A DNA stretch of 64,000 nucleotides, taken from contig JAXISZ010000008.1 in the NCBI GenBank assembly GCA_034680345.1, positions 5,363 to 69,362 on the forward strand, written 5' to 3'. Position numbers and translations under genes: made by a program. Positions 40,975 through 56,426 of the stretch are shown here, piece after piece. Position 1 is the first letter of the stretch, and the number at the start of each line of letters is the position of its first letter. Below the pieces are notes generated by a model. That model was given only the letters and a program-made list of their open reading frames with translations, was not told the origin of the DNA and searched no databases. The DNA is from Burkholderiaceae bacterium (GTDB lineage Bacteria; Pseudomonadota; Gammaproteobacteria; Burkholderiales; Burkholderiaceae_B).

Positions 40975-41043
40975 TTCGGGGTCAAAGTTCAATCGTCCGC
41001 ATACCTTCGTGTTCGAGTTCGGGTTGAAACCAAAGCTCTGTCC

Positions 41044-41280
41044 TTGGGATACCTTGACCCTGCGCATCAAGCCCTGATCGACCGCATCCTGAGGCTTCAC
41101 CAAAACGGTATGAATTGCCGCCAGATTGGAGACCACCTGAATGAGTTGGGGGTGACCTCTTGGGGCGGGAAACGGTTCTATCCGGAACTGGTGTTTGGAG
41201 TGGTCAGGAAGGCTAGGATCAAGGCTGAACGGATATCTGATGCTTTGATGGAAGTACGGTGTGAAATTGTTTCAAATTGA
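41044..41280 (+). pseudogene. serine-recombinase 'recombinase domain' fragment lacking the catalytic N-terminus
   Basis: LDPAHQALIDRILRLHQNGMNCRQIGDHLNELGVTSWGGKRFYPELVFGVVRKA fits the recombinase-domain pattern (IAxxLNxxGVxTxxGxxW). No resolvase catalytic domain lies upstream, because glmS is there. Confidence 0.45.
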
Positions 41281-41349
41281 TTTTCTTGATGCGAAACTTT
41301 GCAAATCGATCAAGAAATTTGAAGCATTAGAGACCTGTTGGATCGCTGG

Positions 41350-41811
41350 TTAACTTGCTAAAAATCCACGCCTGACACGCCATAACAAGTAGCAAAATAG
41401 GAAGCTAGCAAGCGCACCAGACAAGCCCAGTGCCGCACTGATCACATCGCCTTCAACTCTGTATTCGTGTAAACCCAAGGCAGAGAACAAAAGAAGGAAA
41501 AAAGCCCCTCCGAGAAATGCTGTAACTAGATAGAGCTGGACAACGCTCAACATCAATCGCCGAGCCATCGACGGCACAGGGATGGATTTCTGTTTCAGAT
41601 ATATCGATACAACAGTGGGCAACAAAGCAAGAAAATACGCCGTCAATTTGATGTGGTCGGGGTAAGGAATGTTGCCCCATCGTTCGTATGCGTACATCGA
41701 CCAGCGAATGTCTTCAACAACCAACGAAACTATCATCAGAACAGAAGCCCCAATCAAAAAAGTGTGTAAGTTTAGGCGTTTCATATTTTGAGTCGTACAG
41801 GGCAATCTCAA
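41350..41811 (-). CDS. hypothetical 4-TM membrane protein
   Basis: The hydrophobic helices are clear. The likely start is the ATG at 41784 (MKRLNLHTF). I recognise no domain. Confidence 0.45.
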   Translation of the reverse strand: MRLPCTTQNMKRLNLHTFLIGASVLMIVSLVVEDIRWSMYAYERWGNIPYPDHIKLTAYFLALLPTVVSIYLKQKSIPVPSMARRLMLSVVQLYLVTAFLGGAFFLLLFSALGLHEYRVEGDVISAALGLSGALASFLFCYLLWRVRRGFLAS

Positions 41812-42205
41812 AGGACTTGAGGCTTCTGCTTCCGTTGGAAGCCTCGCTTATCTAAAAAATTGGCATTCCCTATCCAAGGACTACGGGAAGTAGCCCTAGC
41901 CCCGCCACGATTGGTACATCTTTAGACGAGGCTCTAACAATAGCTGAGATGTAGACATCTCTATGAGAATCTTCAAGGGTTCCACCGCCACTCTACAAAA
42001 CACCGTCAAATTCTGGTTAAAAAACCGCACCCAGGGCATACAACCTGTACCACATCTTTTGAGTAGTTAGCACGCCAAGACCGAGAACGAAATCAAAAAA
42101 ATCATCAAAGTCTCACGTCGAACCAAAACCTGAATTTTCACATCACCGGCAATAAATGTCAGCGTTCCACCTACACATTACCTTAAGATTGAGAAAAAAA
42201 GGACA

Positions 42206-43561
42206 TTGATGAGTACAAACGATTCGCTTGGTTTTTACAGCACTCTCGGTGTGACGCAGCAAGCATCCCAGTCAGAAATCAAGGCGGCGTACCGTAGCAA
42301 GGCAATGGAGTTTCATCCTGACAGGAACCCTGACAGAGATACGACCTCAGAGTTCCAAGCCCTACAGGCAGCGTACGACGTACTCTCTAACGAGAAACTG
42401 CGCCAGCAATATGATGCAGACAGTTCCATCCCCTCAAGTTCCACTAGTGATGACGAAGGCAGATATAGGCCGCTCGACCCAATTTATTGCTCAAAATGCA
42501 GCTCGGTCTCGGCGCAACCCCGATACAAGGTTTTTTACTCCGTCTACGGGTACATTTTCGGGGCTTATAAGAAGCCACATCAAGGTATTTTTTGTTCGAA
42601 ATGCGAAATCAAAGAAGGACTTAAGGCATCTGCTTTAACTATGGTTGCTGGCTGGTGGAGTATTGCAGGCTTTCTGTGGACCATACAGACGCTGATTCAG
42701 AACCTTGTAGGCGGTAGGTTTAGCGAACAAAATGCCCGACTGCAAGGCTACCAAGCTATGTATTTCGCCCAAATTGGCAAGCTTGATCTTGCCAGAGCTA
42801 TTGCGGTTGAAGCCTTGAAACTGGCTAAAAAGGCGACAAAAGAAAACGGGAAGAGTTTCTCCTTCAAGAAGAACCTTGGTTATGAAACTCCAGATCCACT
42901 CAAGGAATTACGAGACTCGCTAACAAAGTTTATTGACTCACTCGCAGAGGACACAAAGCTTGTTGAACTCAAGAACAAAAATGAGATTTTCAACAAACGA
43001 TTCGCCTATCAGCTCCTTCTTCTGGTCTCCTTTGCAGGGCTAATTTCTGGTGAGCTCTATCGACAAGAACTAGAGACCCGAGAGAAGGAACGCATACGCC
43101 TTGAACAACAGGGAATTGAAAGAGAAAGAGCCGCTGCAATCGCTGCGCAGCAGCAAGAGGAACTGAGGAAATCTGAGCTACCCCTTCCTAGAAGTGGACT
43201 GTTTCGAGGCTTTAGTCCCGTTAATGCACCGCCATTAAAAGTAACCAATTCGCCAGGAGCGAATACGCTAATGAAGCTCATCCGCACTTCTGACGGTGCA
43301 GAGGTAATGAGCATCTTCATTAGAGCGGGTCAAACTGTAGAGCTTGGCGTTCCCGTTGGCAGCTATAACGCAAAAATCGCCTCTGGACAGACTTGGTATG
43401 GGGACTCCATTAGATTCGGCCCCAACACAAGCTATACAACGCTCGATACCGTTCTTCACTTCTCGATTCAAGGTTCTCAGTTACTAGGGAATGAACTTAC
43501 CCTAACTCAGATCAAAAACGGGAATCTACGACAAGTCCCACTTAGCGCAAATGAATTTTGA
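42206..43561 (+). CDS. J-domain protein with CxxC zinc-ribbon-like segment, TM segment, coiled coil and unknown C-terminal domain
   Basis: It has a J domain with HPD (YSTLGV...IKAAYRSKAMEFHPDRNPD...AYDVLSN). This is followed by CSKCS...CSKCE, the hydrophobic stretch MVAGWWSIAGFLWTI, and an E/R/Q-rich coil. Confidence 0.8.
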   Translation: MMSTNDSLGFYSTLGVTQQASQSEIKAAYRSKAMEFHPDRNPDRDTTSEFQALQAAYDVLSNEKLRQQYDADSSIPSSSTSDDEGRYRPLDPIYCSKCSSVSAQPRYKVFYSVYGYIFGAYKKPHQGIFCSKCEIKEGLKASALTMVAGWWSIAGFLWTIQTLIQNLVGGRFSEQNARLQGYQAMYFAQIGKLDLARAIAVEALKLAKKATKENGKSFSFKKNLGYETPDPLKELRDSLTKFIDSLAEDTKLVELKNKNEIFNKRFAYQLLLLVSFAGLISGELYRQELETREKERIRLEQQGIERERAAAIAAQQQEELRKSELPLPRSGLFRGFSPVNAPPLKVTNSPGANTLMKLIRTSDGAEVMSIFIRAGQTVELGVPVGSYNAKIASGQTWYGDSIRFGPNTSYTTLDTVLHFSIQGSQLLGNELTLTQIKNGNLRQVPLSANEF

Positions 43562-43600
43562 AGCTAGCAATGACTAAAGAAAGAAACTGGTCTAATTGCA

Positions 43601-43954
43601 TCATTCGAACTTCCTAACTGCTTCTTCATATGCAGAATTTATTTGCTTTGTTTTTTCCTCAGCAATCATCGTAAATTCTGGTCCTAAAGAAGAGACCTTG
43701 TCTGGGTGATATTGAGAGATCTTTCTTTTGTAGGCAGCTTTTATTTCTTCAAATGAGGCGCCTGGAGTGACATCAAGAGTTTTGTACCAAGACTCGTGAT
43801 TAGACTCTTTAGGAACGTCATATGGATGCTTACCGTTAGACTCAGAAGCCTCGGCTTCCTCTTTGCTAGTCAGCAAAAGACGGACCAGACCATAACCAAA
43901 GAACAGAGCACACAAGACAATGAAGATTTCCTGATTACTTAGACCTTCAAACAT
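43601..43954 (-). CDS. membrane-anchored mini J-domain protein (DjlA-like topology)
   Basis: It has the N-terminal TM IFIVLCALFFGYGLVRLLL and a C-terminal J domain, WYKTLDVTPGASFEEIKAAYKRKISQYHPDK. Confidence 0.75.
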   Translation of the reverse strand: MFEGLSNQEIFIVLCALFFGYGLVRLLLTSKEEAEASESNGKHPYDVPKESNHESWYKTLDVTPGASFEEIKAAYKRKISQYHPDKVSSLGPEFTMIAEEKTKQINSAYEEAVRKFE

Positions 43955-44658
43955 TTCGCAAATCCTTGTAGCAAAGCAATCTTTGATGGATCAGACTCTT
44001 CGTCAAGTGCTGCATTTGTTTGGTTAGTTAACTCATACCGAATCAACTCTGCATCATCTTTCGCTACTCGCTTTAAAGCTCTAATGTGCAACCGTATCGC
44101 ACATATTTTAGAATCTTTAAGTAGCAATATTTTTTTATTGAGGTTTACCAAATAAGCGGGAACGAAAAGCGCCTCCACAAGCAGGGAGATCACCTTCCCC
44201 TTTGGTAACTCTTGCGCTCTTATGAGCAACAAAACAAAAAAAGCTGCAAGCATCCAGATGAAGGCGTGTCCAACCAGCAAGTTAACAACAACTGCCTCGA
44301 AGCCAAATACAAACGAGAGGTAGCAGTTCACTACGAGAAAAAAAAGATACAAATATCCTAAGAAAGCCAACGAGTTCAAGCCTCTAGCCAAAAATTCAAT
44401 TGAGCGCAACTCTCGCTTGTATAGATGTTTTTCCTCGTTCAACGTCACTCTTTCTACCGATATGACACGATCAAACAAATTGATGGGATTGAGAAATACA
44501 ACATCTCTTCCTGCAAATGAATTTCGTTGACGATGCTTGTAATACGGTCGTCCATGTCGACTTATACTGAGAAAATCTTTTCCTTTCGCTATGACAACTA
44601 GGTTGTCGAATACAAGAAATCCTAAAAGAATAACCCAAAAAAGTAACGTCTCGTTCAT
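43939..44658 (-). CDS. hypothetical polytopic membrane protein
   Basis: The 239-aa product has several TM helices and overlaps both neighbouring genes (operon). Confidence 0.5.
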   Translation of the reverse strand: MNETLLFWVILLGFLVFDNLVVIAKGKDFLSISRHGRPYYKHRQRNSFAGRDVVFLNPINLFDRVISVERVTLNEEKHLYKRELRSIEFLARGLNSLAFLGYLYLFFLVVNCYLSFVFGFEAVVVNLLVGHAFIWMLAAFFVLLLIRAQELPKGKVISLLVEALFVPAYLVNLNKKILLLKDSKICAIRLHIRALKRVAKDDAELIRYELTNQTNAALDEESDPSKIALLQGFAKCLKV

Positions 44659-45473
44659 TAGGTTTTATTTCTGGCGAACCACTTTTTGATACCCGCCCAA
44701 ACAGCAGCAGCAGCTCCAACTACTGCCAATAAGATAAGTTTCAAGCCCCCCTTTTTTGTTGCAACTGCCGCAGCTCCACCGAGAACCAATGCACCTAGCC
44801 CATAGGCTGCAACACGGTCACCATCTTTCCATTCGCTGTATTTTTCACCACTTACATAATCAAAATTCTTGAGCGCACTCTTAAAATCTACCAAATCTTT
44901 CTCGAGACTCTGAGGATCAGAGACTAAAATTGCAGAAATGTATCCACTACGCCCCAAAATTTTCGTTGTGACGTTGACCGTGGTACTCTGGTCATTTTCG
45001 GATCTTAGTTTTGTACCCCATTCAAGTCGTTTTGTTTCATTGTCGTAACGTGGTGGAAAATACCACCCCTCCAAAACCATCGTTTGGAGTCCTTGCTTCT
45101 TCCTCTCTTCGTTACCTCGTTGATTACTCTCTTTGAGGCTTGCCAACAGCGCATCAGCATCAATCTTTTCATCGTCCTTTATATATCCTTCATTGTTAAA
45201 GCGCAAAACGCCAAACCAAGAGCTATTTTTAGTAGCGATTGTGTATGAACTTGTTTGTGGAAGGTTCCCATTGAGCTGAAGAAACCTGTCTGTATCTCCT
45301 GCATCCAAGAACAACAAAGGTTCAGTAATCTTGAACTCACCTTTGTCTCCGATCTTTCCTACTGCTGGTGCCATCTGCCAGTTAAGATTTTTAAATTCGG
45401 GGATTTTATGCAGTTGTGCTTGCGCTAGTGTAAAAGCTACACTTAACGCAGCAGCAATAAATGTCTTTTTCAT
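44658..45473 (-). CDS. DUF2167 membrane-anchored protein
   Basis: It has a signal peptide and the WFGVLRFNNEGYIKDDEKIDADALLASLKESNQRGNEERKKQG and KILGRSGYISAILV motifs, as I recall for DUF2167. It also has a C-terminal Gly/Ala-rich TM anchor. Confidence 0.65.
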   Translation of the reverse strand: MKKTFIAAALSVAFTLAQAQLHKIPEFKNLNWQMAPAVGKIGDKGEFKITEPLLFLDAGDTDRFLQLNGNLPQTSSYTIATKNSSWFGVLRFNNEGYIKDDEKIDADALLASLKESNQRGNEERKKQGLQTMVLEGWYFPPRYDNETKRLEWGTKLRSENDQSTTVNVTTKILGRSGYISAILVSDPQSLEKDLVDFKSALKNFDYVSGEKYSEWKDGDRVAAYGLGALVLGGAAAVATKKGGLKLILLAVVGAAAAVWAGIKKWFARNKT

Positions 45474-45483
45474 TTTTTATTTC

Positions 45484-45708
45484 CTATAAATCAGTGTTGT
45501 TGTTTTGAATGAAAAACTTATAAATCGAGAACCCACATAAGAGCTCGCCCAAAGTAATAAGCCCCCAAAATGGACCGCTACCCAGCGTCCACACAAATGC
45601 AATTCCGAGTAAAATCAAAACACCCTTTTTAGGTGGATTCACGTACTTCCCAACGAAAAATCCTATCCCGGAAAATAGCAGGAAATAGATAAACATCAAA
45701 AAATCCAA
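45484..45708 (-). CDS. small 2-3 TM membrane protein
   Basis: The 74-aa product is hydrophobic and lies within the operon. Confidence 0.4.
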   Translation of the reverse strand: MDFLMFIYFLLFSGIGFFVGKYVNPPKKGVLILLGIAFVWTLGSGPFWGLITLGELLCGFSIYKFFIQNNNTDL

Positions 45709-45761
45709 TTTTGTGTCGATAACGTAAGATCTTGACCGTTTTAGATCTTAAAAATCTCAAA

Positions 45762-46214
45762 TCATTTGGATAGTTCAATTAGTTTTGGATAATCATCAAA
45801 TATTTGATTTGCTTGTTCAATAAGTCGAATTAGTATAGTTAATGTCTTGGCATCATATGGGCCAAATTTATACAGACAAACATAAAGCGTATCGCCTTCT
45901 AGTGCAACTTGATATGAAGTCTGTACGTTTATTTTATTTAATATCTCAAGAAATTCTATTCGATTTTGCCCGGATGGCATTTTTTCAAGATTGAACATCC
46001 TGAATATAGATGTTCTTTCATTATTTTTATCGAATAGAACTTTCCCTCGTCCTAATGTGGCAATTGAAATTCTATTGTTTTCTGTGGGCTTTACCTCGTA
46101 ACCCATCGCCTCAAGTTGTTTTGCAATTGGATCATCTTTTGCTAAAGATGCTGCAACTGCAATTGATGAATTCATAAGCAAAACGCTTGCCCATAGAATA
46201 AAATATTTCTTCAT
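45762..46214 (-). CDS. secreted protein, possibly YbjN-like fold
   Basis: It has the signal peptide MKKYFILWASVLLMNSSIAVAA. The remainder loosely resembles the YbjN/chaperone-like family, and that assignment is weak. Confidence 0.4.
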   Translation of the reverse strand: MKKYFILWASVLLMNSSIAVAASLAKDDPIAKQLEAMGYEVKPTENNRISIATLGRGKVLFDKNNERTSIFRMFNLEKMPSGQNRIEFLEILNKINVQTSYQVALEGDTLYVCLYKFGPYDAKTLTILIRLIEQANQIFDDYPKLIELSK

Positions 46215-46380
46215 AAACTTCCGTTAAATTTTGGTGTGTGTTCGCCATCTTACACATCTCAAAAAAAGAATCAACAACTACGAAGCCAGTCTAACCCTGG
46301 CCATAGACGCTGCTGTCGCTTGCGTGAACTTCAAGACGTAACCTTTTGCCAGTTCCATCAGGTGCACGCCATAGCGGACA

Positions 46381-46624
46381 TTAAAAAATCAGTTTCACGA
46401 TATCCGATTTGTTGACTGGCACGGACCCAACACAACCGTTACCGTCCTCTTGACACGGCACAGCTTGACTTTCTGTCACGGCTAGCAGCAGCATAGAGTA
46501 GCCAATACGCACCTGCTTCGTCGGCGAGGTACTTGGCACCGTCGGTGATAAGACACCGACGGTTTAGGCGATAGTAGTGCTCAGTCTCGGTGAAGTGACT
46601 GAGCATCGATGGATCGAATGCCAT
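46381..46624 (-). pseudogene. frameshifted/deleted DUF6876-like gene remnant
   Basis: The ORF FTETEHYYRLNRRCLITDGAKYLADEAGAYWLL stops prematurely. A second frame continues with CQEDGNGCVGSVPVNKSDIVKLIF up to the stop at 46381-46383. The family call is from memory. Confidence 0.35.
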
Positions 46625-46633
46625 TGACAGGCA

Positions 46634-46999
46634 TCAAGCTGTTGCTTTAGCGGGCTTGATCTTGCAAAGCTTGTCGATCAAGTCCATTACTGCCGAGTCG
46701 CCAGTTTCGATCAACAAGGCAATGCGGCGCATCGTCAGTCGTGCCTTTTGCTTGTTGGCGATGGACAGGTCACGAAGAACGTCAGATGGGATGGCTCCGC
46801 CCGAGGTCAGCTTGGTCTTGACCAACTCCGTGCTCATCCGGATGGTCTTGTCATAGACTGCTAGGGCACCATCAACCTCGGTCAAAGAGAGTGCTCTAAG
46901 TGGCTTCTCGTTGGACTTGCGACGGGTCTTAGGTTGGATGGTCTGGTCTACCGAGTTGTTGGTGGTGGTAATGGGCTCGGGGGCAAAGTTTTCGGTCAT
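46634..46999 (-). CDS. hypothetical protein (121 aa)
   Basis: An AGGAGA lies 7 nt upstream of the ATG at 46999 (MTENFAPEP...). The longer track ORF to 47107 probably over-extends. Confidence 0.45.
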   Translation of the reverse strand: MTENFAPEPITTTNNSVDQTIQPKTRRKSNEKPLRALSLTEVDGALAVYDKTIRMSTELVKTKLTSGGAIPSDVLRDLSIANKQKARLTMRRIALLIETGDSAVMDLIDKLCKIKPAKATA

Positions 47000-47231
47000 G
47001 GTCTTTTCTCCTGTAGTGTCATTCGCACCGTGCGTTTGACTAGATCTATAGTATTCATCGGAGAGAAAACGTACACCGCTTTGTGGGCACTGTATTACCA
47101 GTGACACATTTAATAAAAATCGGTGTACAAAAGAGAAAATTCGATTTATTGGCAGTAAAAAGTCTGCTGGGTAGATCCAAAGAAGAAATCAAAATACCTT
47201 AGGTGTCAGTACGTTTGTCCATTTCCAACAT

Positions 47232-47477
47232 TTAGGTCTTGAAAGTTTTGAGTCGTTGCAAAAGAACTTTATCTTCTGTTCCAACCCCGATACCAAGACC
47301 AGAGATGTAGGATAGAAGTTTGTTTTGTTGAGAGATCAACCTGTTTTGTTTGATTGGATCTTTTTCTTGTTCAATCTGTTTAGATAGGTTGCTAATTTTT
47401 ACAACTAAGGTGCCGACAGTAAATCTAACCCAAACAGGATAGGTGCCTTCATTAATGTATTGTTTAAATTTCATCAT
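47232..47477 (-). CDS. hypothetical protein (AT-rich module)
   Basis: An 81-aa ORF, last in a four-gene same-strand series. I recognise no domain. Confidence 0.35.
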   Translation of the reverse strand: MMKFKQYINEGTYPVWVRFTVGTLVVKISNLSKQIEQEKDPIKQNRLISQQNKLLSYISGLGIGVGTEDKVLLQRLKTFKT

Positions 47478-47479
47478 TA

Positions 47480-47665
47480 TTAAACGCCTTCAACTAAAAT
47501 TACTGAAACATATCCTTTTCTCATCTTTTTTTCTAGTTCGTTTAAGAGGTCTTTTCTGTCATTATTTGAATTCAGATCCCACACTTCAAATTTATGAATT
47601 TTCATCGATTGAAGATTTTTGACGACTATATTTTTGGATATGATATTATGATTCTTGTTATTCAT
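47480..47665 (-). CDS. hypothetical protein (AT-rich module)
   Basis: A 61-aa ORF that overlaps the upstream gene by 4 nt. Confidence 0.35.
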   Translation of the reverse strand: MNNKNHNIISKNIVVKNLQSMKIHKFEVWDLNSNNDRKDLLNELEKKMRKGYVSVILVEGV

Positions 47666-47973
47666 AGTCGCAGTCCGTCATCATAAGGATCGAGGAAATC
47701 GTCTGAAACAGGTATATTGAGTGGTTCATCATATGAATCGTCCCAAGTTGATGGTTTATGATGGTTAATCTGTGGAAGATTTTTTATCTTAATGTTTGTA
47801 ATTAAGTCATTCAATTTGCCATCTTCCTTTATGAGTTTGAATTCTTTTCGGCAAAACTCTTCAATCATCGAATTCAAGACAGATGTTCTTGACACTCTTT
47901 TAAAATTTACAAGCTGATCAAAGTTCTTTTTTAAATGATTGGGAATGTTGAAGTTTATTAGTGTGTAAGACAT
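47662..47973 (-). CDS. ribbon-helix-helix (CopG/Arc/MetJ-like) protein
   Basis: The N-terminus TLINFNIPNHLKKNFDQLVNFKRVSRTSVLNSMIEEF fits the RHH strand-helix-helix pattern. Confidence 0.45.
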   Translation of the reverse strand: MSYTLINFNIPNHLKKNFDQLVNFKRVSRTSVLNSMIEEFCRKEFKLIKEDGKLNDLITNIKIKNLPQINHHKPSTWDDSYDEPLNIPVSDDFLDPYDDGLRL

Positions 47974-48135
47974 TATTTAATCTCCTTTAGTATTGTTGTT
48001 ATTTGTTATATTCATGATCTGTTTTGGTATTGTTATTAATTATTTAATTTTAGGCAATAGCATAGACTAAAGGAAAAGATGATCTTTCCTTTTTGATGGT
48101 TGATGGACTGATAAAGGGAAATTATTCCAACAATA

Positions 48136-48627
48136 TCAATGTAAAAACACGTTGTCCCAATCAACTGAAGATTGAAGTCCTTCGCCCTTCGATCTATTTT
48201 TTAATTTATAATCAAGCCAACCAAAATAATTATCTATAGGTTTGATTTCTATATCATGGTATCCGAATGTAGTTTTGCGCCAACATTTGATTATCATGTT
48301 TCTAAATTCATCTGGGTCCAAATGAATCGGTTTTTCTAGAGTCATGTGTATGTGAAAACGTATAAATGAATTGCCTTCAATTACTGGAACGACTGATAAT
48401 CTTTTTCCATATCTTGTAAAACCCTTGCCAAACACTGATTGATTAAGTCGGTTCATGAAGTGTCTTGTATTTTTAGAAACTTTTAATGGATCAAGATTTT
48501 CTCCAAATCTACCTTTGGAATGATTCCGCTCTAATCTTTGTTTTAAAGTGAGTGTTAGAGCAACGGGATTGGGAATAGGTTTGTTCTGAAAAAAATCGAG
48601 ATAATCAAATTTTGTTGGTAAATTCAT
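48136..48627 (-). CDS. candidate HUH-type rolling-circle Rep endonuclease domain protein
   Basis: Three motifs occur in the canonical order: ALTLTL (res 23-28), FHIHMTL (HUH, res 91-97) and DYKLK (YxxK, res 139-143). There is no helicase domain. Confidence 0.4.
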   Translation of the reverse strand: MNLPTKFDYLDFFQNKPIPNPVALTLTLKQRLERNHSKGRFGENLDPLKVSKNTRHFMNRLNQSVFGKGFTRYGKRLSVVPVIEGNSFIRFHIHMTLEKPIHLDPDEFRNMIIKCWRKTTFGYHDIEIKPIDNYFGWLDYKLKNRSKGEGLQSSVDWDNVFLH

Positions 48628-48924
48628 TAAGTCCTTTAATACTGTGTAATATTAATATCATTATTTATATGAAAATTACCCCATATTTACTAATCTATGA
48701 AAATATTTTTATAAAACAGAATTTGTAATTTGCCGCCTTGAGGGTTTGATTAATAATTGCTACTTGAATGATGTTCTCGCTATTTACACCAGAGTGTTGA
48801 CATCTTCTTAAGAGAAGATTGAAAAATTTTGAGAATGGCTATCCTATGTCGTGATAACCGAGATGTCGGCGCACACTTCGCCACAGACTTTCTTGAATAT
48901 GTTCAAGCGCTGGTGGTGATATCG

Positions 48925-48942
48925 TTTTTTTTGGGGGGGGGG
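48925..48942 (+). repeat. T8G10 homopolymer junction
   Basis: TTTTTTTTGGGGGGGGGG directly abuts the truncated recombinase pseudogene. Confidence 0.9.
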
Positions 48943-48943
48943 C

Positions 48944-49120
48944 TACTCATTGCACTGTGGTGAGCGCATGTTCATCACGAATGCAGCTCGAAAGATCAGC
49001 ACGGTTGGCTTCTCTTTACGTGGCGAGTAGATGCTGGCGGGTCACTAGTCCCTAGCTGTCACCCAGCGGTATATCGACGACGACAGTGAGGCGAGAATGA
49101 AGATCGTCGACCTGATCTAG
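48944..49120 (+). pseudogene. 5'-truncated tyrosine recombinase paralog with two in-frame TAG stops
   Basis: It translates as YSLHCGERMFITNAARKISTVGFSLRGE*MLAGH*SLAVTQRYIDDDSEARMKIVDLI*. This is colinear with the C-terminus of the intact gene at 52172-52774 (SSHSGRRTFITNAAKKISTVGGSLRDVQWLAGHSSLQTTQRYIDGDSDARRKVVDLV*). Confidence 0.8.
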
Positions 49121-49140
49121 GCTGATATGGGTCTAATTCC

Positions 49141-51837
49141 TTACCGGTATTCAATCAGCAGGAATTCAGCGCCACCTGCAATAAGATCGTTGATCTTGAG
49201 TTTTGGGAACAGGTTGCGCTTAAGCACTCCTAGTTTGATTCGCACCTCCTGCGTGTTGGGCACTCGATGCGGCGTGAAGACCGTTTTCTTGGCAGCATTG
49301 TCTACATCGGTCTTGGTGCAGGGAATCCCTGCTTCATCGTTTAGGATGTCCGCCAGATCCTTCGCTTTGAGCTTGTAGGTCGGGAAGATGTTTTTTCTGC
49401 CAAAGGCATGTGGTTTTAGCTCATGCGTGCCTGCCTTACGCAGCTTCAATGCGATCAACAGCTCCTGACGCAACCTCTTCAAATCGCCTTGGTCTTTCCG
49501 CAGGTATTTCGAGGCATCGCCCTCAGTGCTCAGGCTGCTTTCGTGGAATGTTGCAAAGGCTTCGAGGTCCTCGACCGTTTTCAGGCAATGCCGTTCCGAC
49601 AGGTTGTATTGCTCCCATAACTGACGGGTCTTTTGAAACTGCTTGATGGTCTCCCAGGGACATGTTTGAAATTGCAGATGCTGGTAGCCTTCACCCTTAG
49701 TCATGACGGGATTGGTCGGTCGTCGCTTCCAGTCGTACTCCATGGAAAGGACTTTTTCCATTTCACGGTCGACGAAATCAGCACCAAGTTCATACATGTC
49801 CCGGATGCCGAGACCCAAGGTCATCATCATCGTATCTGTGGGCTGGCGGTTGAAAAAGAGGTTGATGATTTGGCTATTTTCGGCTGGCTTTGAGGCTGGA
49901 TCAGGCAGTTTGATGCCGCCCTTTGCGAGGACATATCGCTCGTCTTCCTTAGGCGCCATGCCCGTGTCTTGCCAGTCTGATGCCTCACTTGGAACAAGGG
50001 TAGCCTGAGCACGTGTTCGCCAGCCCAATGGCTTTCGTATGATGTGTTTGATTTCGTAAACGTCTTCTTTGCCAGATGAGACGCCAGTCAGAAGACGCCT
50101 AGAGGATCGGTAAAACCGACAAAGCGTGCCTTTGGATGCTTGCGCCATTTGCTCGGCAGTCGCAGTGGTCAAGAAACCATCGGTCGTCACGTTGAAGATG
50201 GCAACATTCTTGGGCAGGGCGTTCATAATTTCGCCCAGCACGCCCCGACAAAATGCAGTGATGAAGGCGGCATACACTGGGTTCGTGATCGGGCTTTCAG
50301 CGAGTGGCTTGGTGTCTTGGTCTCGCAGATCATAGATGCGTCGCTCTCGCAACCCTTGAGCAGTCTTGCCATAAGTCGAGTTGACTAGCTCTTTCCAGAA
50401 CAGGTTATTTAAAGTCTTTTTCGGGAACTGCTTACGCTGCTCGATGCAATAACGGGTGAAGCCGTCAAACGGGCGCACTGGGCGCTCAATTCCCTGCTTA
50501 ACTTTCCCATGTCGCCCAGACGGGATGAAACGTCCCTCAATTAATGTGATCTTTGCCCCCAGGCTGTGCGCCAACAAGATCTCGCTGATGTGAGTCGTGC
50601 TGTTGCCCTTTCGGGGAAAAATCAGACCGTTCTCGGTTCTGACTGGCAACACCGGATAGGCAACATCATCAGGGAACTCAAAATCGACATTGGCAAACGC
50701 CAGCTCGGCGGACCGAAAGTTCAACAATTCATCTGTGTCACGAATGGGGCGGCATTCGTCCCAATCAGGTCTGCCGATCAAAGCCATCGCCGATGGATAG
50801 GCGCTGGAAAGGTCATAGTCATACCAGACGCTTTCAAACGCAGGTCCAAACCAGAATTGCTCGTTGCGTCCGCCGTGATAACACTCGGTGAAGAAGTCGA
50901 GCGACCAATGGATTTTCTTGAGGTAAACGATCTTTTTCTTGGTCTGATATCTCCCGAAGCGTTTGCTCCAGTATTTCTCTTTGATTTCCTCTTTGCCGAC
51001 GATCTCAAGTGGGTTAACGCCTTGGTCCTTCCAGAACTGTCGGATCAGATCGACGCCGATGGAGGTCAATGTCACAGGCATGCGGAACTTGCCAGTCCGG
51101 TCTTGGTAAAGACGGATCATCCTACGGGTGTATTGGGTGCAGATTTCGGCGTCTCGGATGGCGTACTCATGAAATGCATCCCAATCTTGCTGCATGAACG
51201 CCTTCATGTTCTGCTTGATCTTCAGCTCTTCCTGTGGGGTCGAACCAAGTTCGATCTTTTCAAAGTCAAGGATGTCACCAATACCTGCAAGGCTCTTTGC
51301 GCCAGCAGGGGCAAGGGTCATGGTGTCCCGGATTTTCACACTAATCGGGATGCTATCGCCGGAAGAAGTCTTACCAAGGTTCAGCCTAATGTCATTGGCG
51401 ACGTTCATGAAGAGGTTGCGAATGTTGTCCAGCTTTAGGGTTGATCTTGTCGCTTCGTCTTTGAAGTCAGCAAATCCCGGCACATCAGCCCTTGTGAAGT
51501 GGGCGACAAGATAGATCGTGCTGGGCAAAATTAGGTTAGGGAAGCGGGCGCAACCATCAGCCAACGCAGATGTCAGGAAATCTTCCAGAGTTATACGGTC
51601 CTCAACATTAGGACCTCTTGGCTTGAGCAGTCCTGACCAGATTGGTGCAGAGCTATCATCACCATGACGTTCTATCACGGTGCAGCAGTATTGATAGCTG
51701 AGAACCTCGTTGTTTAAGGTCCGGCTGGCGTCGTCAGTGTATCGCTGGTATTCGGTATCAAAGCCAATGATCAGGTAACGGCTGGGGTCAGCACGCACTG
51801 TGTGGATCGAATCGAATTGTGACTTTAATAAGGGCAT
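49141..51837 (-). CDS. family-B DNA polymerase, primer-independent PolB (piPolB)-like
   Basis: Motifs: ExoI FDTEY (D27/E29), ExoII HFTRAD, ExoIII YAIRD. Also YHGGRNE, motif A DLSSAYPS (342-349), motif B KELVNSTYG (482-490), motif C TTDG (551-554), and KH-x8-RTR (597-609). Confidence 0.85.
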   Translation of the reverse strand: MPLLKSQFDSIHTVRADPSRYLIIGFDTEYQRYTDDASRTLNNEVLSYQYCCTVIERHGDDSSAPIWSGLLKPRGPNVEDRITLEDFLTSALADGCARFPNLILPSTIYLVAHFTRADVPGFADFKDEATRSTLKLDNIRNLFMNVANDIRLNLGKTSSGDSIPISVKIRDTMTLAPAGAKSLAGIGDILDFEKIELGSTPQEELKIKQNMKAFMQQDWDAFHEYAIRDAEICTQYTRRMIRLYQDRTGKFRMPVTLTSIGVDLIRQFWKDQGVNPLEIVGKEEIKEKYWSKRFGRYQTKKKIVYLKKIHWSLDFFTECYHGGRNEQFWFGPAFESVWYDYDLSSAYPSAMALIGRPDWDECRPIRDTDELLNFRSAELAFANVDFEFPDDVAYPVLPVRTENGLIFPRKGNSTTHISEILLAHSLGAKITLIEGRFIPSGRHGKVKQGIERPVRPFDGFTRYCIEQRKQFPKKTLNNLFWKELVNSTYGKTAQGLRERRIYDLRDQDTKPLAESPITNPVYAAFITAFCRGVLGEIMNALPKNVAIFNVTTDGFLTTATAEQMAQASKGTLCRFYRSSRRLLTGVSSGKEDVYEIKHIIRKPLGWRTRAQATLVPSEASDWQDTGMAPKEDERYVLAKGGIKLPDPASKPAENSQIINLFFNRQPTDTMMMTLGLGIRDMYELGADFVDREMEKVLSMEYDWKRRPTNPVMTKGEGYQHLQFQTCPWETIKQFQKTRQLWEQYNLSERHCLKTVEDLEAFATFHESSLSTEGDASKYLRKDQGDLKRLRQELLIALKLRKAGTHELKPHAFGRKNIFPTYKLKAKDLADILNDEAGIPCTKTDVDNAAKKTVFTPHRVPNTQEVRIKLGVLKRNLFPKLKINDLIAGGAEFLLIEYR

Positions 51838-51844
51838 GACAGAA

Positions 51845-51888
51845 GTAGTAAAAGTTTATCCTAATTACCCATACCAAACTTTTACTAC
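51845..51888. repeat. perfect 13-bp inverted repeat (18-nt spacer) just upstream of the polymerase start codon
   Basis: GTAGTAAAAGTTT at 51845-51857 pairs with AAACTTTTACTAC at 51876-51888. Confidence 0.9.
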
Positions 51889-52171
51889 AATGTTAGCGCC
51901 CAAAAAATTGAAAAAGACTATTTTTTATTAAAAGTAAAAATAAGTAAAAATAAGTTAAATGTAGTTTTATTTAAAATTTATCAATTCAAATCCGGAATCG
52001 ATTGATCGAGTAGGCGGAGGTCTATCGCCGTAACTGGTTATCGAATAACAAAAATATCATCAGTCACACTAAGCCATTGATTTCAAACACTATTTTGTCC
52101 GTACAAAACGGTGTACGAAATGATCTCGTTTTATTAAAATAGATTTTGATATTTTTATAACGAGATAGCTC

Positions 52172-52774
52172 ATGGCACTTGGAAAACAAGCAAAGGTCCT
52201 GTCGAAGCAGCAAATCGAATCCCTGTACCTCTCGCTGTCATTGACCCGAGACCCTGACAGGAACCGTCTGATCTTCCTTCTGTCTGTGAAGGCGGGTCTG
52301 AGGGCAAAAGAGATCGCTGGGCTGACGTGGGGAATGGTCATTGATGCTTCAGGTGATCTTTCAGATCAGATTGCCTTGGAGAACTTGGCGTCAAAGGGCA
52401 TGTCAGGTCGGATCATCCCGATTAACAAACTGCTTAAGCAGGAGCTCCAGCGCCAGTTGGATGGAGTCCTTGTCAAGAAGACCATCCAAGAAATCCGCAA
52501 TCAACGGGTAATACAAACCCAAAGGGGCGATGCAACATCTGCCCAGGTGATCGTGAATATGTTCAAAGGTTGGTATGCCCGTGCTGGTCTGATTGGTTGT
52601 TCATCCCATAGCGGCCGCCGTACCTTCATAACCAATGCAGCAAAAAAGATTTCTACGGTTGGTGGCTCATTGAGAGATGTTCAGTGGCTTGCTGGTCACA
52701 GCAGCCTTCAGACAACCCAGCGGTATATTGATGGCGATAGTGATGCCCGCAGGAAGGTTGTTGATCTTGTCTGA
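52172..52774 (+). CDS. small tyrosine recombinase (catalytic domain only)
   Basis: The catalytic residues sit in RAKEIAGLTW, HSGRRTF and LAGHSSLQTTQRYI (the RHRY-type set). Confidence 0.85.
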   Translation: MALGKQAKVLSKQQIESLYLSLSLTRDPDRNRLIFLLSVKAGLRAKEIAGLTWGMVIDASGDLSDQIALENLASKGMSGRIIPINKLLKQELQRQLDGVLVKKTIQEIRNQRVIQTQRGDATSAQVIVNMFKGWYARAGLIGCSSHSGRRTFITNAAKKISTVGGSLRDVQWLAGHSSLQTTQRYIDGDSDARRKVVDLV

Positions 52775-54443
52775 AGTTCTCCACATCTACACCCGTGTTT
52801 CCACCCTTGTCCAAGCCGATGAGGGAATGTCTTTGGAGTTCCAAAAAGAGTTGGGTATCAAACGTGCTCAGGATCTGGGCTTTGACTTCAAGCTTTGGAA
52901 CGAAGGTGGCAAGTCCTCAAACCACGAAGAACTTGATAAGCGACCAATGCTGTCGCAGCTTTTCAACGAGATAAAACGTGGCTCCGTCAAACACCTGTTT
53001 GTGTACGATCAGTCACGGTTATCACGTAACGACACGGTCTCATCCATCTTCCGTATCGAATGCGCCAAACAGGGAGTGACCCTTTACAACAAGGAGGGGA
53101 AGTACAACCTGAGTGACCACAACGACCACTTCATGAAGCAAATTCTTGATGCGGTCGGTCAATTCGACAATGCCCAAAGAGCAGAACGAACACGACTGGG
53201 CAAATTGGCACGAATTAGGCAGGGGAACTGGATGGGAGGGCCTCCACCATATGGCTACGAAATCCAGAATCGAAAATTGGTCATCAATGATGAAGAAGCG
53301 AAATGGGTCAAGTACATCTACGAGCAATATGCCGAGCGTGTGCCACTCATTGACGTGAAATTTGAGCTTGACTCCAAGGGGGTCGAACCAAGGCGCAAGC
53401 TTGGCACTTGGACGATGGGCTCATTGCAGGCGTTGCTGCGAAATACCCACTACCTTGGGTATTGGGATTTTAAGGATGGAAAGACAGGTGAGGAAATCCG
53501 AGTTGATTGCCCCCGGATTCTTCCTTCTGCGTTGTGGTCCAAAGTTCAGAAAACCAAGGAAGATCATCTCAGCAAACGCAACAGCACCAATGCGGTGAAG
53601 CATTTCTACATGCTCAAGAACGTGCTTCGCTGTGGTCATTGCGGAACATGGCTGTCTGGAACAATTAACCCAAAGCAACCAAGTAAGAAACACTACTACT
53701 GTCCCAAGAAAATGCGTGAATGGGGAAAACGGTCGATTGAGCAGGAAGATAAGTGGAAGCGTGGCAGGGTGTGTGAAATGACTCGGTCACTGAACATCGA
53801 TGCCACAGATGAACTGGTCTGGAACACCGTCCTCGATGTCATCACCAAAAGTCGAACCTTCAGAGAAAAAACCAAGGTTGAAATTCTCGGGGAGGACTAC
53901 CTGTCTGCCAAAGGCGCTGAAGAAGAAATCAAAAATGTGAATCAGAAGGTGAGCCAGTTGAAAAAGATGCTGGCAAAGGTGCAGGATGCACTTGCACGGG
54001 TGGAGACGGACAGGTTGATGGAGCGACTGAGCCCCGATCAGTACCCAGTTGTTCGTGGAAACATCAGCAAAGAAAAACTGGCGATTGAAGTCGAAATCGA
54101 ACAACTGACTGCTAAGGCTGACGGCATCGGTCGTGATCGTAAGTGGTTCAAATGGCTGGATAACTTTCGGCAAAAAATCGACTCATTCAAGGATTTCACG
54201 CCTGCCCAGCGCAAAGAGGTCTTGGCGGGGCTTTTAACCTCGGTGGATGTTTTAATGATCGACAGTCAGACACATTGGCTGGAACTTCAATTCAATGTGC
54301 CGCTCGTGGATGATGAGTTGGTGTATCGTGATCCATCCAACAAGAAGCTCGGCTATGCCATCAAAAATGGCATGACGACCTGCATGGTTGAGCTATCCCA
54401 GAAGTCCCATGGCAAAAAAAAACCAATCGAGCCAACTACTTGA
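52743..54443 (+). CDS. large serine recombinase
   Basis: It has the resolvase motif IYTRVSTLVQ, a recombinase domain (GGPPPYGYE), a zinc ribbon (CGHCG...YYCP) and a coiled coil. The start is uncertain: the ATG at 52743 overlaps the Tyr recombinase by 32 nt, and the track ORF begins at 52677. Confidence 0.85.
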   Translation: MPAGRLLILSEVLHIYTRVSTLVQADEGMSLEFQKELGIKRAQDLGFDFKLWNEGGKSSNHEELDKRPMLSQLFNEIKRGSVKHLFVYDQSRLSRNDTVSSIFRIECAKQGVTLYNKEGKYNLSDHNDHFMKQILDAVGQFDNAQRAERTRLGKLARIRQGNWMGGPPPYGYEIQNRKLVINDEEAKWVKYIYEQYAERVPLIDVKFELDSKGVEPRRKLGTWTMGSLQALLRNTHYLGYWDFKDGKTGEEIRVDCPRILPSALWSKVQKTKEDHLSKRNSTNAVKHFYMLKNVLRCGHCGTWLSGTINPKQPSKKHYYCPKKMREWGKRSIEQEDKWKRGRVCEMTRSLNIDATDELVWNTVLDVITKSRTFREKTKVEILGEDYLSAKGAEEEIKNVNQKVSQLKKMLAKVQDALARVETDRLMERLSPDQYPVVRGNISKEKLAIEVEIEQLTAKADGIGRDRKWFKWLDNFRQKIDSFKDFTPAQRKEVLAGLLTSVDVLMIDSQTHWLELQFNVPLVDDELVYRDPSNKKLGYAIKNGMTTCMVELSQKSHGKKKPIEPTT

Positions 54444-54471
54444 ATAAAGGTCAAAAGGACTTTAGTCCGCC

Positions 54472-54499
54472 ACGGTGGAATAGTTTCGCTTTTACCTTT
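54472..54499 (+). repeat. right junction repeat (attR-like), a displaced glmS 3'-end look-alike
   Basis: ACGGTGGAATAGTTTCGCTTTTACCTTT reads ...T V E TAG in the glmS-equivalent frame. Confidence 0.65.
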
Positions 54500-54572
54500 G
54501 CGTGCTTCGAGGTTGATGTTAGCACCCATGTTACTGTGATATAGGTACGCAACAATAGGCAAGTCAGAAGAG

Positions 54573-54609
54573 CTTTGAGGGTGCTTATTGGGTCCCTCAG
54601 AGGGTTTTT
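54573..54609 (+). terminator. rho-independent terminator-like hairpin, possibly the displaced native glmS terminator
   Basis: CTTTGAGGG (54573-81) pairs with CCCTCAGAG (54594-602), with one G-U pair. The loop is 12 nt, followed by GGTTTTT. Confidence 0.45.
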
Positions 54610-54650
54610 CACCAAAATTCTTTTATCAATTGCACAAGTCGATCGGGGTT

Positions 54651-56396: not shown

Positions 56397-56426
56397 TCCA
56401 TATTTATTAAAAAATGAATATTTATA

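What the first reader, a model, noticed from the sequence alone, without database searches (positions are those of the whole stretch)
54472..54499. Junction repeats show the element supplies a new glmS terminus and displaces the native one
The left copy is 40947-40974 (ACGGTGGAATA-A-TTT-TC-TTTT-G-ACCTTT). The right copy is 54472-54499 (ACGGTGGAATA-G-TTT-CGC-TTTT-ACCTTT). They share a perfect 11-bp core and ~24-25 of ~29 aligned positions. In the glmS frame the right copy reads T-V-E-TAG, while the current glmS ends T-V-E-TAA. Sequence left of the right copy has no further glmS similarity. This is the pattern expected when an attP that mimics the gene's 3' end recombines within the 11-bp core. 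On that reading the native stop was TAG, and the native terminator is probably the hairpin at 54573-54609. At the left junction only a weak hairpin without a T tract (40965-40986) follows glmS. An 11-bp exact match between two ~100-bp junction windows is unlikely by chance; my rough estimate is on the order of 1 in several hundred.
Basis: seen in the sequence. Interest (0 to 1): 0.6.

Follow-up and report, generated by a model that had tools for sequence, protein, structure and literature searches.

The report
Serine-recombinase island rewrites the glmS end
The two repeats are the left and right attachment sites of a 13.5-kb mobile island that a large serine recombinase spliced into the last codons of the essential gene glmS. 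The island supplies a replacement gene end, and an island-free strain of the same species shows the predicted empty site, so this is an ordinary mechanism at a target not yet described for it.

Summary
**Observation confirmed; interpretation supported and sharpened.**

- **Repeats.** 40947-40974 and 54472-54499 share an exact 11-mer and 23/28 ungapped matches. Shuffles reach the 11-mer in 4/2000 and the 28-mer score in 0/300.
- **Empty site.** Logan contig L063, from the same species (99.6-99.8% identical), reads glmS...GTTACGGTGGAATAGTTTCGCTTTTACCTTTGCG... straight into the downstream genes.
- **Enzyme.** The recombinase is the large serine recombinase (LSR) that ends 29 nt before the right repeat.
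- **attP.** It rebuilds as a 54-bp imperfect palindrome: AAAGGTCAAAAGGACTTTAGTCCGCC-AC-GGTGGAATAATTTTCTTTTGACCTTT.
- **Crossover.** About 20 sibling elements, five with both junctions, and a second empty site place it on the AC of the Thr codon. The island therefore supplies the last 10 nt of glmS plus a new 3' flank.
- **Caveat.** The displaced end is the pre-insertion end but probably not the aboriginal one. Its non-coding part matches 15/16 the arm of a sister LSR clade; 26 other right arms score 4-8/16. A 97%-identical element elsewhere (L066) sits on a clearer relic of an earlier occupant. This points to SCC-like serial occupancy.
- **Scope.** Pipolins have not been reported at glmS in the papers I could search.

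The parts
39117..40958 (+). glmS (613 aa). Its last 10 nt (G of the Thr codon, GTG GAA TAA) are supplied by the island.
   Evidence: ORF and translation. It is 80-86% identical to glmS of same-genus genomes. The empty-site contig L063 is identical up to the AC.
40921..40946 (+). B arm of attL: host half-site inside the glmS coding sequence (codons K-P-R-N-L-A-K-S-V).
   Evidence: It is conserved in all occupied and empty sites.
40947..40948 (+). Crossover dinucleotide AC at attL.
   Evidence: AC is the only stretch shared by attL and attR in L033, L048-50 and G042. An independent empty site (L029) bounds it on both sides.
40949..40974 (+). P' arm (type A): element-derived new glmS end plus distal motif TTTTGACCTTT.
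   Evidence: The same arm follows glmS in L018, L019, L033 and L048-50. It is the inverted partner of 54446-54471 (I2).
40964..40987 (+). 10-bp hairpin formed by the P' distal motif and its inverted copy. It has no T run and may act as a barrier or terminator for glmS read-through.
   Evidence: Fold of -14.8 kcal/mol, z -2.8. It is conserved in type-A siblings.
41044..41280 (+). Small conserved ORF (about 78 aa, start uncertain) next to attL, with a weak Recombinase/HTH signal. It is a candidate accessory or directionality factor.
   Evidence: It is 70-96% identical at the amino-acid level at the same position in all sibling elements, and it follows attP in the marine contigs L044/45. Pfam Recombinase E=0.029, below threshold.
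40949..54473 (.). The integrated element: 13,525 bp, counted from one AC to the next.
   Evidence: It is absent from L063, where 40948 is joined to 54474-equivalent sequence.
49141..51837 (-). Family-B DNA polymerase of piPolB type, the replication module of this particular element.
   Evidence: Pfam DNA_pol_B_2, E=1e-10. It is absent from all sibling loci found through the LSR. It is present with the same Y-rec/LSR in L065-L068.
52172..52774 (+). 200-aa tyrosine recombinase with a catalytic domain only. It is not the integrase for this site.
   Evidence: Pfam Phage_integrase. It is 89-93% identical across elements whose att arms differ.
52731..54443 (+). Large serine recombinase. Gene callers place the start at 52731 or 52743; a TTG at 52767 with an AGGAAGG upstream is also possible. 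The active-site motif YTRVST is present.
   Evidence: Pfam Resolvase + Recombinase + Zn_ribbon_recom. Sequence. Gene calls of 570 and 566 aa. Distant matches to the SPbeta, TP901-1, phiC31 and A118 integrases.
54446..54471 (+). P arm of attR (type A), starting 3 nt after the LSR stop codon.
   Evidence: It is conserved after the LSR stop in 13 distinct junctions.
54472..54473 (+). Crossover dinucleotide AC at attR.
   Evidence: Same evidence as for 40947-40948.
54474..54499 (+). Right arm: the displaced pre-insertion glmS end (GGTGGAATAG) plus TTTCGCTTTTACCTTT. The second part is of type-B P' kind and is a probable relic of an earlier occupant.
   Evidence: It directly follows glmS in the empty site L063. 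It matches the type-B P' arm of L017 at 15/16, against 4-8/16 for 26 other right arms.
54567..54615 (+). Hairpin followed by GGUUUUU: plausible terminator of glmS in the empty-site state.
   Evidence: Fold of -19.2 kcal/mol, z -1.9. The consensus scan does not flag it because the loop is too long.

Best explanation
**What the repeats are.** They are attL and attR of a 13.5-kb integrative element. The element carries a piPolB-type polymerase, a short tyrosine recombinase and a large serine recombinase (LSR).

**How it integrated.**
- The LSR recombined the element's attP with attB.
- attP is a 54-bp imperfect palindrome, P-AC-P', lying just past the LSR stop codon.
- attB consists of the last ~26 nt of glmS, the AC of the Thr codon in the T-V-E-stop ending, and ~26 nt downstream.
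- Cleavage and exchange occur at the AC dinucleotide.
- Everything right of AC at the left junction is therefore element DNA: the third base of Thr, then Val, Glu, TAA, a hairpin and a small conserved ORF.
- The former end, ...GGTGGAATAG plus its flank, is moved 13.5 kb away to attR.

**Shown.**
- The repeat itself.
- The empty site in a conspecific strain.
- The conserved P and P' arms in siblings.
- Host-specific remnants at attR.
- The bounding of the crossover to AC.

**Inferred.**
- That the LSR, and not the tyrosine recombinase, is the enzyme.
- That the element is still mobile.
- That the displaced end is itself the P' arm left by an earlier element of a sister LSR clade (about 0.75). 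On this reading the site is overwritten serially, as SCC elements do at rlmH.
For: **Empty site in the same species.**
- L063 joins window 40948 to 54474 through one copy of the repeat, at 99.6-99.8% identity.
- Occupied copies also exist in other assemblies: L064, L065, L067 and L068.

**LSR and attP.**
- The LSR has Resolvase, Recombinase and Zn-ribbon domains and the YTRVST motif. It ends 3 nt before the P arm.
- P (54446-54471) and P' (40949-40974) are inverted repeats, 81% complementary, symmetric about AC (I2).

**Sibling elements.**
- 13 distinct junctions, with LSRs 64-98% identical, show the conserved P arm, then AC, then a variable T-V-E-stop remnant. Examples are ACCGTGGAATGA, ACCGTCGAGTAA, ACTGTTGAATAA and ACCGTTGAGTGA.
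- Marine relatives at 40% identity show the same layout. Some are palindromic attP-like sites that already contain T-V-E-stop (L041, L044/45).
- In G041, G042, G043, L033 and L048-50, glmS ends ACGGTGGA(A/G)TAA followed by the conserved P' arm and the small ORF.

**Second empty site.** L029 (G078) reads ...GTGACCGTTGAGTGATTTCGAAGTCCTG... This equals the attR right arm of G043 at 31/32.

**Crossover.** In L033, L048-50 and G042 only AC is shared, with mismatches at -1 and +1.

**Arms track the LSR, not the tyrosine recombinase.**
- The LSR DNA-binding domains are 61-75% identical (RD and ZD) and 38-41% (C-terminal part) in the type-B clade, against 89-94% for the catalytic domain.
- The tyrosine recombinase stays 89-93% identical across both arm types.

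**Relic reading.**
- The window's right arm matches the type-B P' arm at 15/16 and L034's at 16/16. The other 26 right arms score 4-8/16.
- L066 is 97% identical to the window over 6.3 kb of the element. Its right junction runs into a decayed P' arm plus about 130 nt of a small-ORF region, and then host genes.
- L048-50 and G043 are a 5.6-kb deletion derivative with a truncated LSR.
Against: - No excised circle or attP junction of this element was seen.
- No recombination directionality factor is identified.
- The right arm of attB has P'-type geometry. Under the A118/LI model of attB/attP discrimination that would make the target an attL-like site, which cognate LSRs normally do not recombine with attP.
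- For the relic reading:
  - No other trace of an earlier element exists in 54500-54944 or anywhere in the 1.68-Mb assembly.
  - I can name no site-specific route that leaves a P' arm alone.
- Same-genus genomes give no information on the aboriginal flank.
Confidence: 0.9

Rival explanations
1. The right copy is the truly aboriginal glmS end and flank of this species. Its likeness to element arms is adaptive or coincidental: the four half-sites are bound by one protein and so come to look alike.
For: - The island-free strain L063 carries exactly this flank with no element.
- No other relic sequence was found downstream.
- The B arm inside glmS (GATAAACCTCG) also loosely resembles the distal motif ATAAAGGTCA, so some half-site resemblance is built in (by eye).
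Against: - The 14-mer TCGCTTTTACCTTT is the exact reverse complement of the P-arm motif of one sister subclade (L014, L036). It sits in the P' register.
- 26 other right arms score at chance level.
- 0 of 400 genomes of the host's family have such a flank.
- The three same-genus genomes end GAG TGA followed by unrelated sequence.
- L066 shows a real relic at the same place.
Confidence: 0.22
2. The tyrosine recombinase (52172-52774) is the integrase, and the 11-bp core is its overlap region.
For: - Pipolins described so far mostly use tyrosine recombinases and are flanked by direct repeats (PMC5695915, PMC11551731).
- An intact Phage_integrase domain is present.
Against: - In L033, L048-50 and G042, attB and attP share only 2 bp at the crossover, with mismatches on both sides. 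Established knowledge of tyrosine recombinases says they need 6-8 bp of identity.
- The protein is 200 aa and has only the catalytic domain.
- It stays 89-93% identical while the att arms switch type.
- The arms form a palindrome centred on a 2-bp core next to the LSR gene.
- PMC11551731 notes that in alphaproteobacterial pipolins carrying both an LSR and an IntP2-type tyrosine recombinase, the site is set by the LSR.
Confidence: 0.04
3. This is a Tn7-like transposon inserted at attTn7 behind glmS.
For: glmS is the classic Tn7 attachment locus (established knowledge).
Against: - None of the ten island ORFs scanned against Pfam matches a transposase or other Tn7 transposition protein (TnsA-D); several smaller ORFs were not scanned.
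- The joint lies inside the coding sequence, not about 25 bp downstream of it.
- There is no 5-bp target duplication and there are no Tn7-type ends.
- The empty site differs from the occupied one by a site-specific exchange.
Confidence: 0.01
4. The repeat is a chance match, and the island arrived by another route.
For: An 11-mer alone has a chance of about 0.2%, which is small but not negligible over a whole genome scan.
Against: - The 28-mer score is reached in 0/300 shuffles.
- The empty site ends exactly at the repeat.
- About 20 sibling junctions have the same layout.
Confidence: 0.005

Closest known systems
SCC elements (SCCmec and composite SCC islands) moved by the CcrAB/CcrC large serine recombinases into the 3' end of rlmH (orfX). 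This comparison rests on my own knowledge.
   Same: - A large serine recombinase is the integrase.
- The target is the last codons of a conserved housekeeping gene.
- The element restores the reading frame.
- Short direct repeats of the gene end bound the element.
- New elements enter next to the gene, while older ones or their ccr-less relics are pushed distally.
   Different: - The target is glmS, not rlmH.
- There is a single LSR, only distantly related to solved LSRs (E about 1e-5 to 1e-7).
- The hosts are freshwater Burkholderiales and marine bacteria.
- The cargo here is a piPolB replication module, not resistance genes.
- The earlier occupant survives only as a 16-nt arm.
Phage-type large serine integrases (phiC31, Bxb1, TP901-1, A118/LI, SPbeta SprA).
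   Same: - Domain set of Resolvase + Recombinase + zinc ribbon + C-terminal coiled-coil region.
- attP of about 50 bp, an imperfect palindrome around a non-palindromic 2-bp crossover.
- attB and attP share almost nothing except the core.
   Different: - P' encodes the gene's last codons, so the target gene stays intact. A118 in comK and SPbeta in spsM split their target genes, and Bxb1 changes the GroEL1 C-terminus (my own knowledge).
- The attB used here has a right arm with P' geometry.
Pipolins (piPolB-encoding elements; PMC5695915, PMC11551731).
   Same: - A family-B polymerase of piPolB type plus recombinases on a 10-30 kb integrative island.
- An LSR plus a tyrosine recombinase, as in alphaproteobacterial pipolins, where the LSR sets the site.
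   Different: - Reported sites are tRNA or tmRNA genes and yifB. The word glmS does not occur in either paper.
- Most relatives of this LSR/att module carry no piPolB. L033 has a Herpes_ori_bp-like helicase instead. The att/LSR backbone and the polymerase are therefore separable modules.
Tn7 and attTn7 (TnsD recognition of the glmS 3' end; my own knowledge).
   Same: Both use the highly conserved C-terminal coding sequence of glmS as a safe and universal landing mark.
   Different: Tn7 uses transposition, inserts downstream of the stop codon with a 5-bp duplication, and leaves glmS untouched. Here the mechanism is conservative site-specific recombination inside the gene, and the gene end is replaced.

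Membership tests
Large serine recombinase (serine integrase) integrative element | Integrase with an N-terminal resolvase catalytic domain, a recombinase domain and a zinc-ribbon domain. | tested here: met
   Pfam PF00239 (1.6e-17), PF07508 (1.6e-11) and PF13408 (1.4e-5), all above their cut-offs.
Large serine recombinase (serine integrase) integrative element | Catalytic serine in a Y-x-R-V-S-T type motif near the N-terminus. | tested here: met
   ...HIYTRVSTLVQ.... It is conserved in the alignment of 13 relatives.
Large serine recombinase (serine integrase) integrative element | attP of about 50 bp: an imperfect inverted repeat around a non-palindromic central dinucleotide. | tested here: met
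   The rebuilt attP is 26 + AC + 26 nt with arms 81% complementary (I2). Marine relatives show intact palindromic attP-like sites.
Large serine recombinase (serine integrase) integrative element | Exchange at a 2-bp crossover with no further homology requirement. | tested here: met
   This is comparative only. AC is the sole shared stretch in three attL/attR pairs and is bounded by the empty site L029. It is consistent with L063. No biochemical mapping was done.
Large serine recombinase (serine integrase) integrative element | A separate recombination directionality factor for excision. | tested here: inconclusive
   The conserved 78-aa ORF next to attL is a candidate, but it has only sub-threshold Recombinase/HTH hits.
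Pipolin | Encodes a primer-independent family-B polymerase (piPolB). | tested here: inconclusive
Pfam DNA_pol_B_2, E=1e-10. A TTD-type motif C (NVTTDGF) is visible. I ran no phylogeny or motif test of my own.
Pipolin | Integration at tRNA/tmRNA (tyrosine recombinase) or yifB (LSR), as described. | tested here: not met
   The site is the glmS 3' end. glmS is absent from both pipolin papers.
Tn7-like transposon at attTn7 | TnsA/B/C/D genes, Tn7-type ends, a 5-bp target duplication, and insertion downstream of the glmS stop. | tested here: not met
   None of the ten island ORFs scanned against Pfam matches a Tn7 transposition protein; several smaller ORFs were not scanned. The joint is inside the Thr codon, and the occupied and empty sites differ by site-specific exchange.
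SCC (staphylococcal cassette chromosome) elements | Ccr-type LSRs and the rlmH (orfX) integration site sequence. | tested here: not met
   The target is glmS. No Ccr sequence was fetched or compared here, so the LSR's kinship to Ccr proteins is untested; no Ccr protein appears among its PDB matches. The element works like SCC but is not a member.

The most novel reading that the evidence does not exclude
The glmS stop region is a shared, repeatedly overwritten landing pad for a broad and so far undescribed superfamily of large serine recombinases. The superfamily covers freshwater Burkholderiales at 64-98% identity and marine bacteria at about 40%. Each arrival replaces the last 10 nt and the whole 3' flank of an essential gene. 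Older occupants decay to nested P' relics, so a 'native' glmS end in these lineages may be element-derived DNA. The att/LSR backbone also swaps replication modules (piPolB here, a helicase-type protein in L033), which makes it a general chassis rather than a pipolin trait.
Probability: 0.55. Interest if true: 0.65.

Novelty: new member of a known kind. Interest (0 to 1): 0.5.

Why it matters
- **A well-supported natural LSR system.** attB, attP, attL and attR can all be written down, and the crossover is mapped to 2 bp. The attB lies in one of the most conserved bacterial coding sequences. This could serve as a broad-host-range integration tool comparable in reach to Tn7.
- **A new pipolin site.** It adds glmS to the known pipolin integration sites. 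It also shows that the polymerase and the integration backbone are separable modules.
- **Second-hand gene ends.** The relic arm suggests that the 3' end and 3' untranslated region of an essential gene can be second-hand element DNA. This matters when such flanks are read as native regulatory sequence.

Tried and rejected
**Same-genus genomes G001-G003 as empty sites.** Their glmS ends ACGGTGGAGTGA followed by unrelated sequence. The downstream UbiA/PMT gene pair lies elsewhere in those genomes. They are uninformative.

**Searches for the empty site that found nothing.**
- An exact-pattern scan of metagenome contigs for GGTGGAATAGTTTCGCTTTTACC gave 0 hits.
- Exact-protein look-ups failed for glmS, the UbiA protein, the PMT protein and three LSR start variants. 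This is probably because gene callers chose other start codons.
- The look-up succeeded only with the Glycos_transf_4 gene and the tyrosine recombinase.

**Search for a second attR, a second LSR or any other element copy.**
- Nothing was found in the window or in the whole assembly.
- blastn and tblastx of 54484-54960 against all sibling loci found nothing beyond the 28-nt arm.

**Other negative results.**
- The P'-type pattern occurs only in the window's own genome among 400 genomes of the host's family.
- The viral contig scan with the LSR gave no relatives.
- The spacer after the right copy is about 460 nt, in the top 6% of ORF-free gaps by a crude count. This is too weak to count as evidence for a relic.
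- The Tn7 and tyrosine-recombinase readings were rejected, as set out under the rival explanations.

Full report
**1. The observation**

- Left, 40947-40974: ACGGTGGAATAATTTTCTTTTGACCTTT.
- Right, 54472-54499: ACGGTGGAATAGTTTCGCTTTTACCTTT.

glmS runs from 39117 to 40958 and ends T-V-E-TAA. The right copy reads T-V-E-TAG in the same register. The repeat finder lists the pair as 82% identical without gaps (D2).

I compared the two 100-bp junction windows against mononucleotide shuffles.
- The 11-nt exact run is reached in 4 of 2000 shuffles.
- The 23/28 ungapped score is reached in 0 of 300.

**2. What lies between the repeats**

The 13.5 kb between the repeats encodes the following:
- a family-B polymerase of piPolB type, 49141-51837, minus strand (Pfam DNA_pol_B_2);
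- a 200-aa tyrosine recombinase with a catalytic domain only, 52172-52774;
- a large serine recombinase (LSR) ending at 54443, with Resolvase, Recombinase and zinc-ribbon domains and the motif YTRVST;
- J-domain and envelope genes;
- an AT-rich Rep-like module.

The LSR stop codon lies 3 nt before the P arm.

The host is a streamlined betaproteobacterial assembly of 1.68 Mb and 42% GC. The closest relatives of its LSR are in Limnohabitans and Comamonadaceae MAGs.

**3. The direct test: an empty site in the same species**

I ran an exact-protein look-up with a downstream glycosyltransferase. It returned contig L063 (Logan, SRR9302962, 14.3 kb).
- It is 99.6% identical to window 39876-40974 and 99.8% identical to window 54472-64000.
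- The two blocks are joined through a single copy of the repeat.
- It reads ...AAGAGTGTTACGGTGGAATAGTTTCGCTTTTACCTTTGCGTGCTTCGAGG....

Other assemblies of the same species carry the island: L064, L065 (GCA_034679945.1), L067 and L068. The island is therefore polymorphic in the species. The right copy is the end that glmS had before the insertion.

**4. Sibling elements, the attachment sites and the crossover**

LSR relatives at 64-98% identity were found in three MAGs and about 20 metagenome contigs.

*Right junctions.* In every one that reaches the junction, the LSR stop is followed by:
- a conserved P arm (AAAGGTCAAAAGGACTTTAGTCCG[C/T]C or a type-B variant);
- then AC;
- then a variable T-V-E-stop remnant.

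The remnants include CGTGGAATGA, CGTCGAGTAA, TGTTGAATAA, CGTTGAGTGA and GGTGGAGTAG. Synonymous variation of this kind is what displaced ends of different hosts' glmS should show.

*Left junctions.* In G041, G042, G043, L033 and L048-50, glmS ends ACGGTGGA(A/G)TAA. It is followed by a conserved P' arm, a hairpin and a small ORF. L033 and L048-50 hold both junctions on one contig.

*A second empty site.* L029 (G078) reads ...GTGACCGTTGAGTGATTTCGAAGTCCTG... This matches the attR right arm of G043 at 31/32.

*Position of the crossover.*
- In L033, L048-50 and G042, attL and attR share only AC, with mismatches at -1 and +1.
- In G043 the empty site L029 sides with attL at -1 and with attR at +1.

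*The rebuilt sites for the window.*
- attP = AAAGGTCAAAAGGACTTTAGTCCGCC-AC-GGTGGAATAATTTTCTTTTGACCTTT.
- attB = ...AACCTCGCAATTTGGCTAAGAGTGTT-AC-GGTGGAATAGTTTCGCTTTTACCTTT.
- The element supplies the last 10 nt of glmS and its whole 3' flank.

*Marine relatives.* Relatives at 40% identity (L041, L043-45) use the same codon. Some of these contigs show intact palindromic attP-like sites that already contain T-V-E-stop, followed by the small ORF.

**5. Which enzyme**

Five points favour the LSR.
- Its gene abuts the P arm in every element.
- attP is a palindrome around a non-palindromic 2-bp core.
- Two base pairs of shared sequence are enough for a serine recombinase. By established knowledge they are too few for a tyrosine recombinase.
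- The arm types follow the DNA-binding part of the LSR. The catalytic domain is 89-94% identical in all freshwater clades. In the clade with type-B arms, the recombinase and zinc-ribbon domains are 61-75% identical and the C-terminal part 38-41%.
- The tyrosine recombinase stays 89-93% identical across both arm types.

PMC11551731 reports the same division of labour in alphaproteobacterial pipolins that carry both enzymes.

**6. A correction: the displaced end is probably second-hand**

*The right arm is of element type.*
- The 16 nt after the TAG are TTTCGCTTTTACCTTT.
- They contain TCGCTTTTACCTTT, the exact reverse complement of the P-arm motif AAAGGTAAAAGCGA of the type-B clade (L014, L036).
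- They sit in the register of that clade's P' arm (L017).

*Scores against the type-B P' arm.*

| Right arm | Matches |
|---|---|
| Window | 15/16 |
| L034 | 16/16 |
| 11 other attR arms and 15 empty attB arms | 4-8/16 |

No other genome among 400 of the host's family has such a flank.

*Supporting cases.*
- L066 carries the same piPolB/Y-rec/LSR block, 97% identical over 6.3 kb, in a different host context. Its right junction runs into a decayed P' arm and about 130 nt of a small-ORF region. Homology then stops and a host dehydrogenase gene begins. This is a clear relic of an earlier occupant.
- G043 and L048-50 are a 5.6-kb deletion derivative with only the last 121 residues of the LSR. Decay in place does happen.

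*Reading.* I read the window's right arm as a shorter relic of this kind, with probability about 0.75.

*Against this reading.*
- Nothing else of an earlier element is detectable.
- I can name no site-specific route that leaves only a P' arm.
- Random deletion in a streamlined genome is the fallback explanation.
- Synteny downstream of glmS is broken relative to same-genus genomes. This fits a rearranged site but does not prove it.

**7. Comparison with what is known**

- **SCC elements.** The system works like SCC elements at rlmH: an LSR, a target in the last codons of a housekeeping gene, the frame restored, and serial occupancy with relics. This comparison rests on my own knowledge. The element is not a member of that family, because it has a different target. 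I fetched and compared no Ccr sequence, so the LSR's kinship to Ccr recombinases is untested (one search lists only PDB matches).
- **Pipolins.** By its polymerase it qualifies as a pipolin. However, glmS is not among the reported pipolin sites. Most relatives of the att/LSR backbone lack piPolB, and L033 has a helicase-type replication gene instead.
- **Tn7.** It shares with Tn7 only the choice of glmS as a landmark.
- **Literature.** Searches for LSR plus glmS found nothing relevant.
- **Earlier notes of this scan.** Unchecked AI notes describe LSR-linked cassette arrays behind glmS in marine SAR86. This agrees with the marine relatives I found.

**8. Verdict**

- The mechanism is ordinary site-specific integration by a large serine recombinase.
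- The new points are the target (glmS), the LSR family, the pipolin cargo and the probable second-hand gene end.
- I rate it a new member of a known kind, with interest 0.5.

**Limits**

- No biochemistry was done.
- The relic reading is an inference.

Noticed in passing
window 41044-41280; L017-L019, L032, L033, L044/45, L048-50: The small ORF next to attL is conserved at 70-96% amino-acid identity at the same position in every sibling element. In the marine contigs it follows attP. It is therefore a core gene of the element (possible directionality factor or regulator), not the trace of an earlier occupant as another first-stage note proposed.
   Followed up: partly
window 48848-49120 and 52172-52774; sibling loci L032, L033, L037-L039: piPolB is bracketed by a decayed C-terminal copy of the tyrosine recombinase and the intact gene (58-nt repeat, 74% identical, D1). 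No sibling found through the LSR has piPolB. The polymerase module looks like an insertion or module swap into an LSR/att backbone. L033 carries a Herpes_ori_bp-like helicase at the equivalent place.
   Followed up: partly
LSR alignment: window 52773-54443 against L014, L015, L036-L038: The LSR is a mosaic. The catalytic domain is 89-94% identical across clades, but the DNA-binding and C-terminal parts are only 38-75% identical. The att arm motifs change with them (AAAGGTCAAAAGGA against AAAGGTAAAAGCGA). This looks like a natural specificity-domain swap.
   Followed up: partly
L048-L050, L016/L018 (G043): These hold a 5.6-kb deletion derivative of a window-like element. The left genes are 96-98% identical. 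DUF2167 is truncated and only the last 121 residues of the LSR remain. attL and attR are intact. It is an immobilised relic at glmS in Limnohabitans.
   Followed up: partly
L066:6290-6500 (SRR27205370): The same piPolB element in another host sits on a relic of an earlier element, consisting of a decayed P' arm plus a truncated small-ORF region. Its stop codon is TGA rather than TAA.
   Followed up: yes
window 54945-58034; G002:C5, G003:C15: In same-genus genomes the HAD-UbiA and PMT-type glycosyltransferase gene pair to the right of the island lies between blocks that map to contig C7 and to C8:24.7-28.8 kb of this genome. The region downstream of glmS has therefore been rearranged in this lineage.
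   Followed up: partly
window 48925-48942 and 54651-54659: A T8G10 homopolymer lies at the truncated tyrosine recombinase and a G9 run lies in the spacer after attR (D14). I saw no link between them beyond the G run.
   Followed up: no
G042: L019 (attL) against L015 (attR): attL carries a type-A P' arm, while the LSR and P arm at attR are of type B. This is either a hybrid attP, a tandem pair broken by the assembly, or a mixed population in the MAG.
   Followed up: partly
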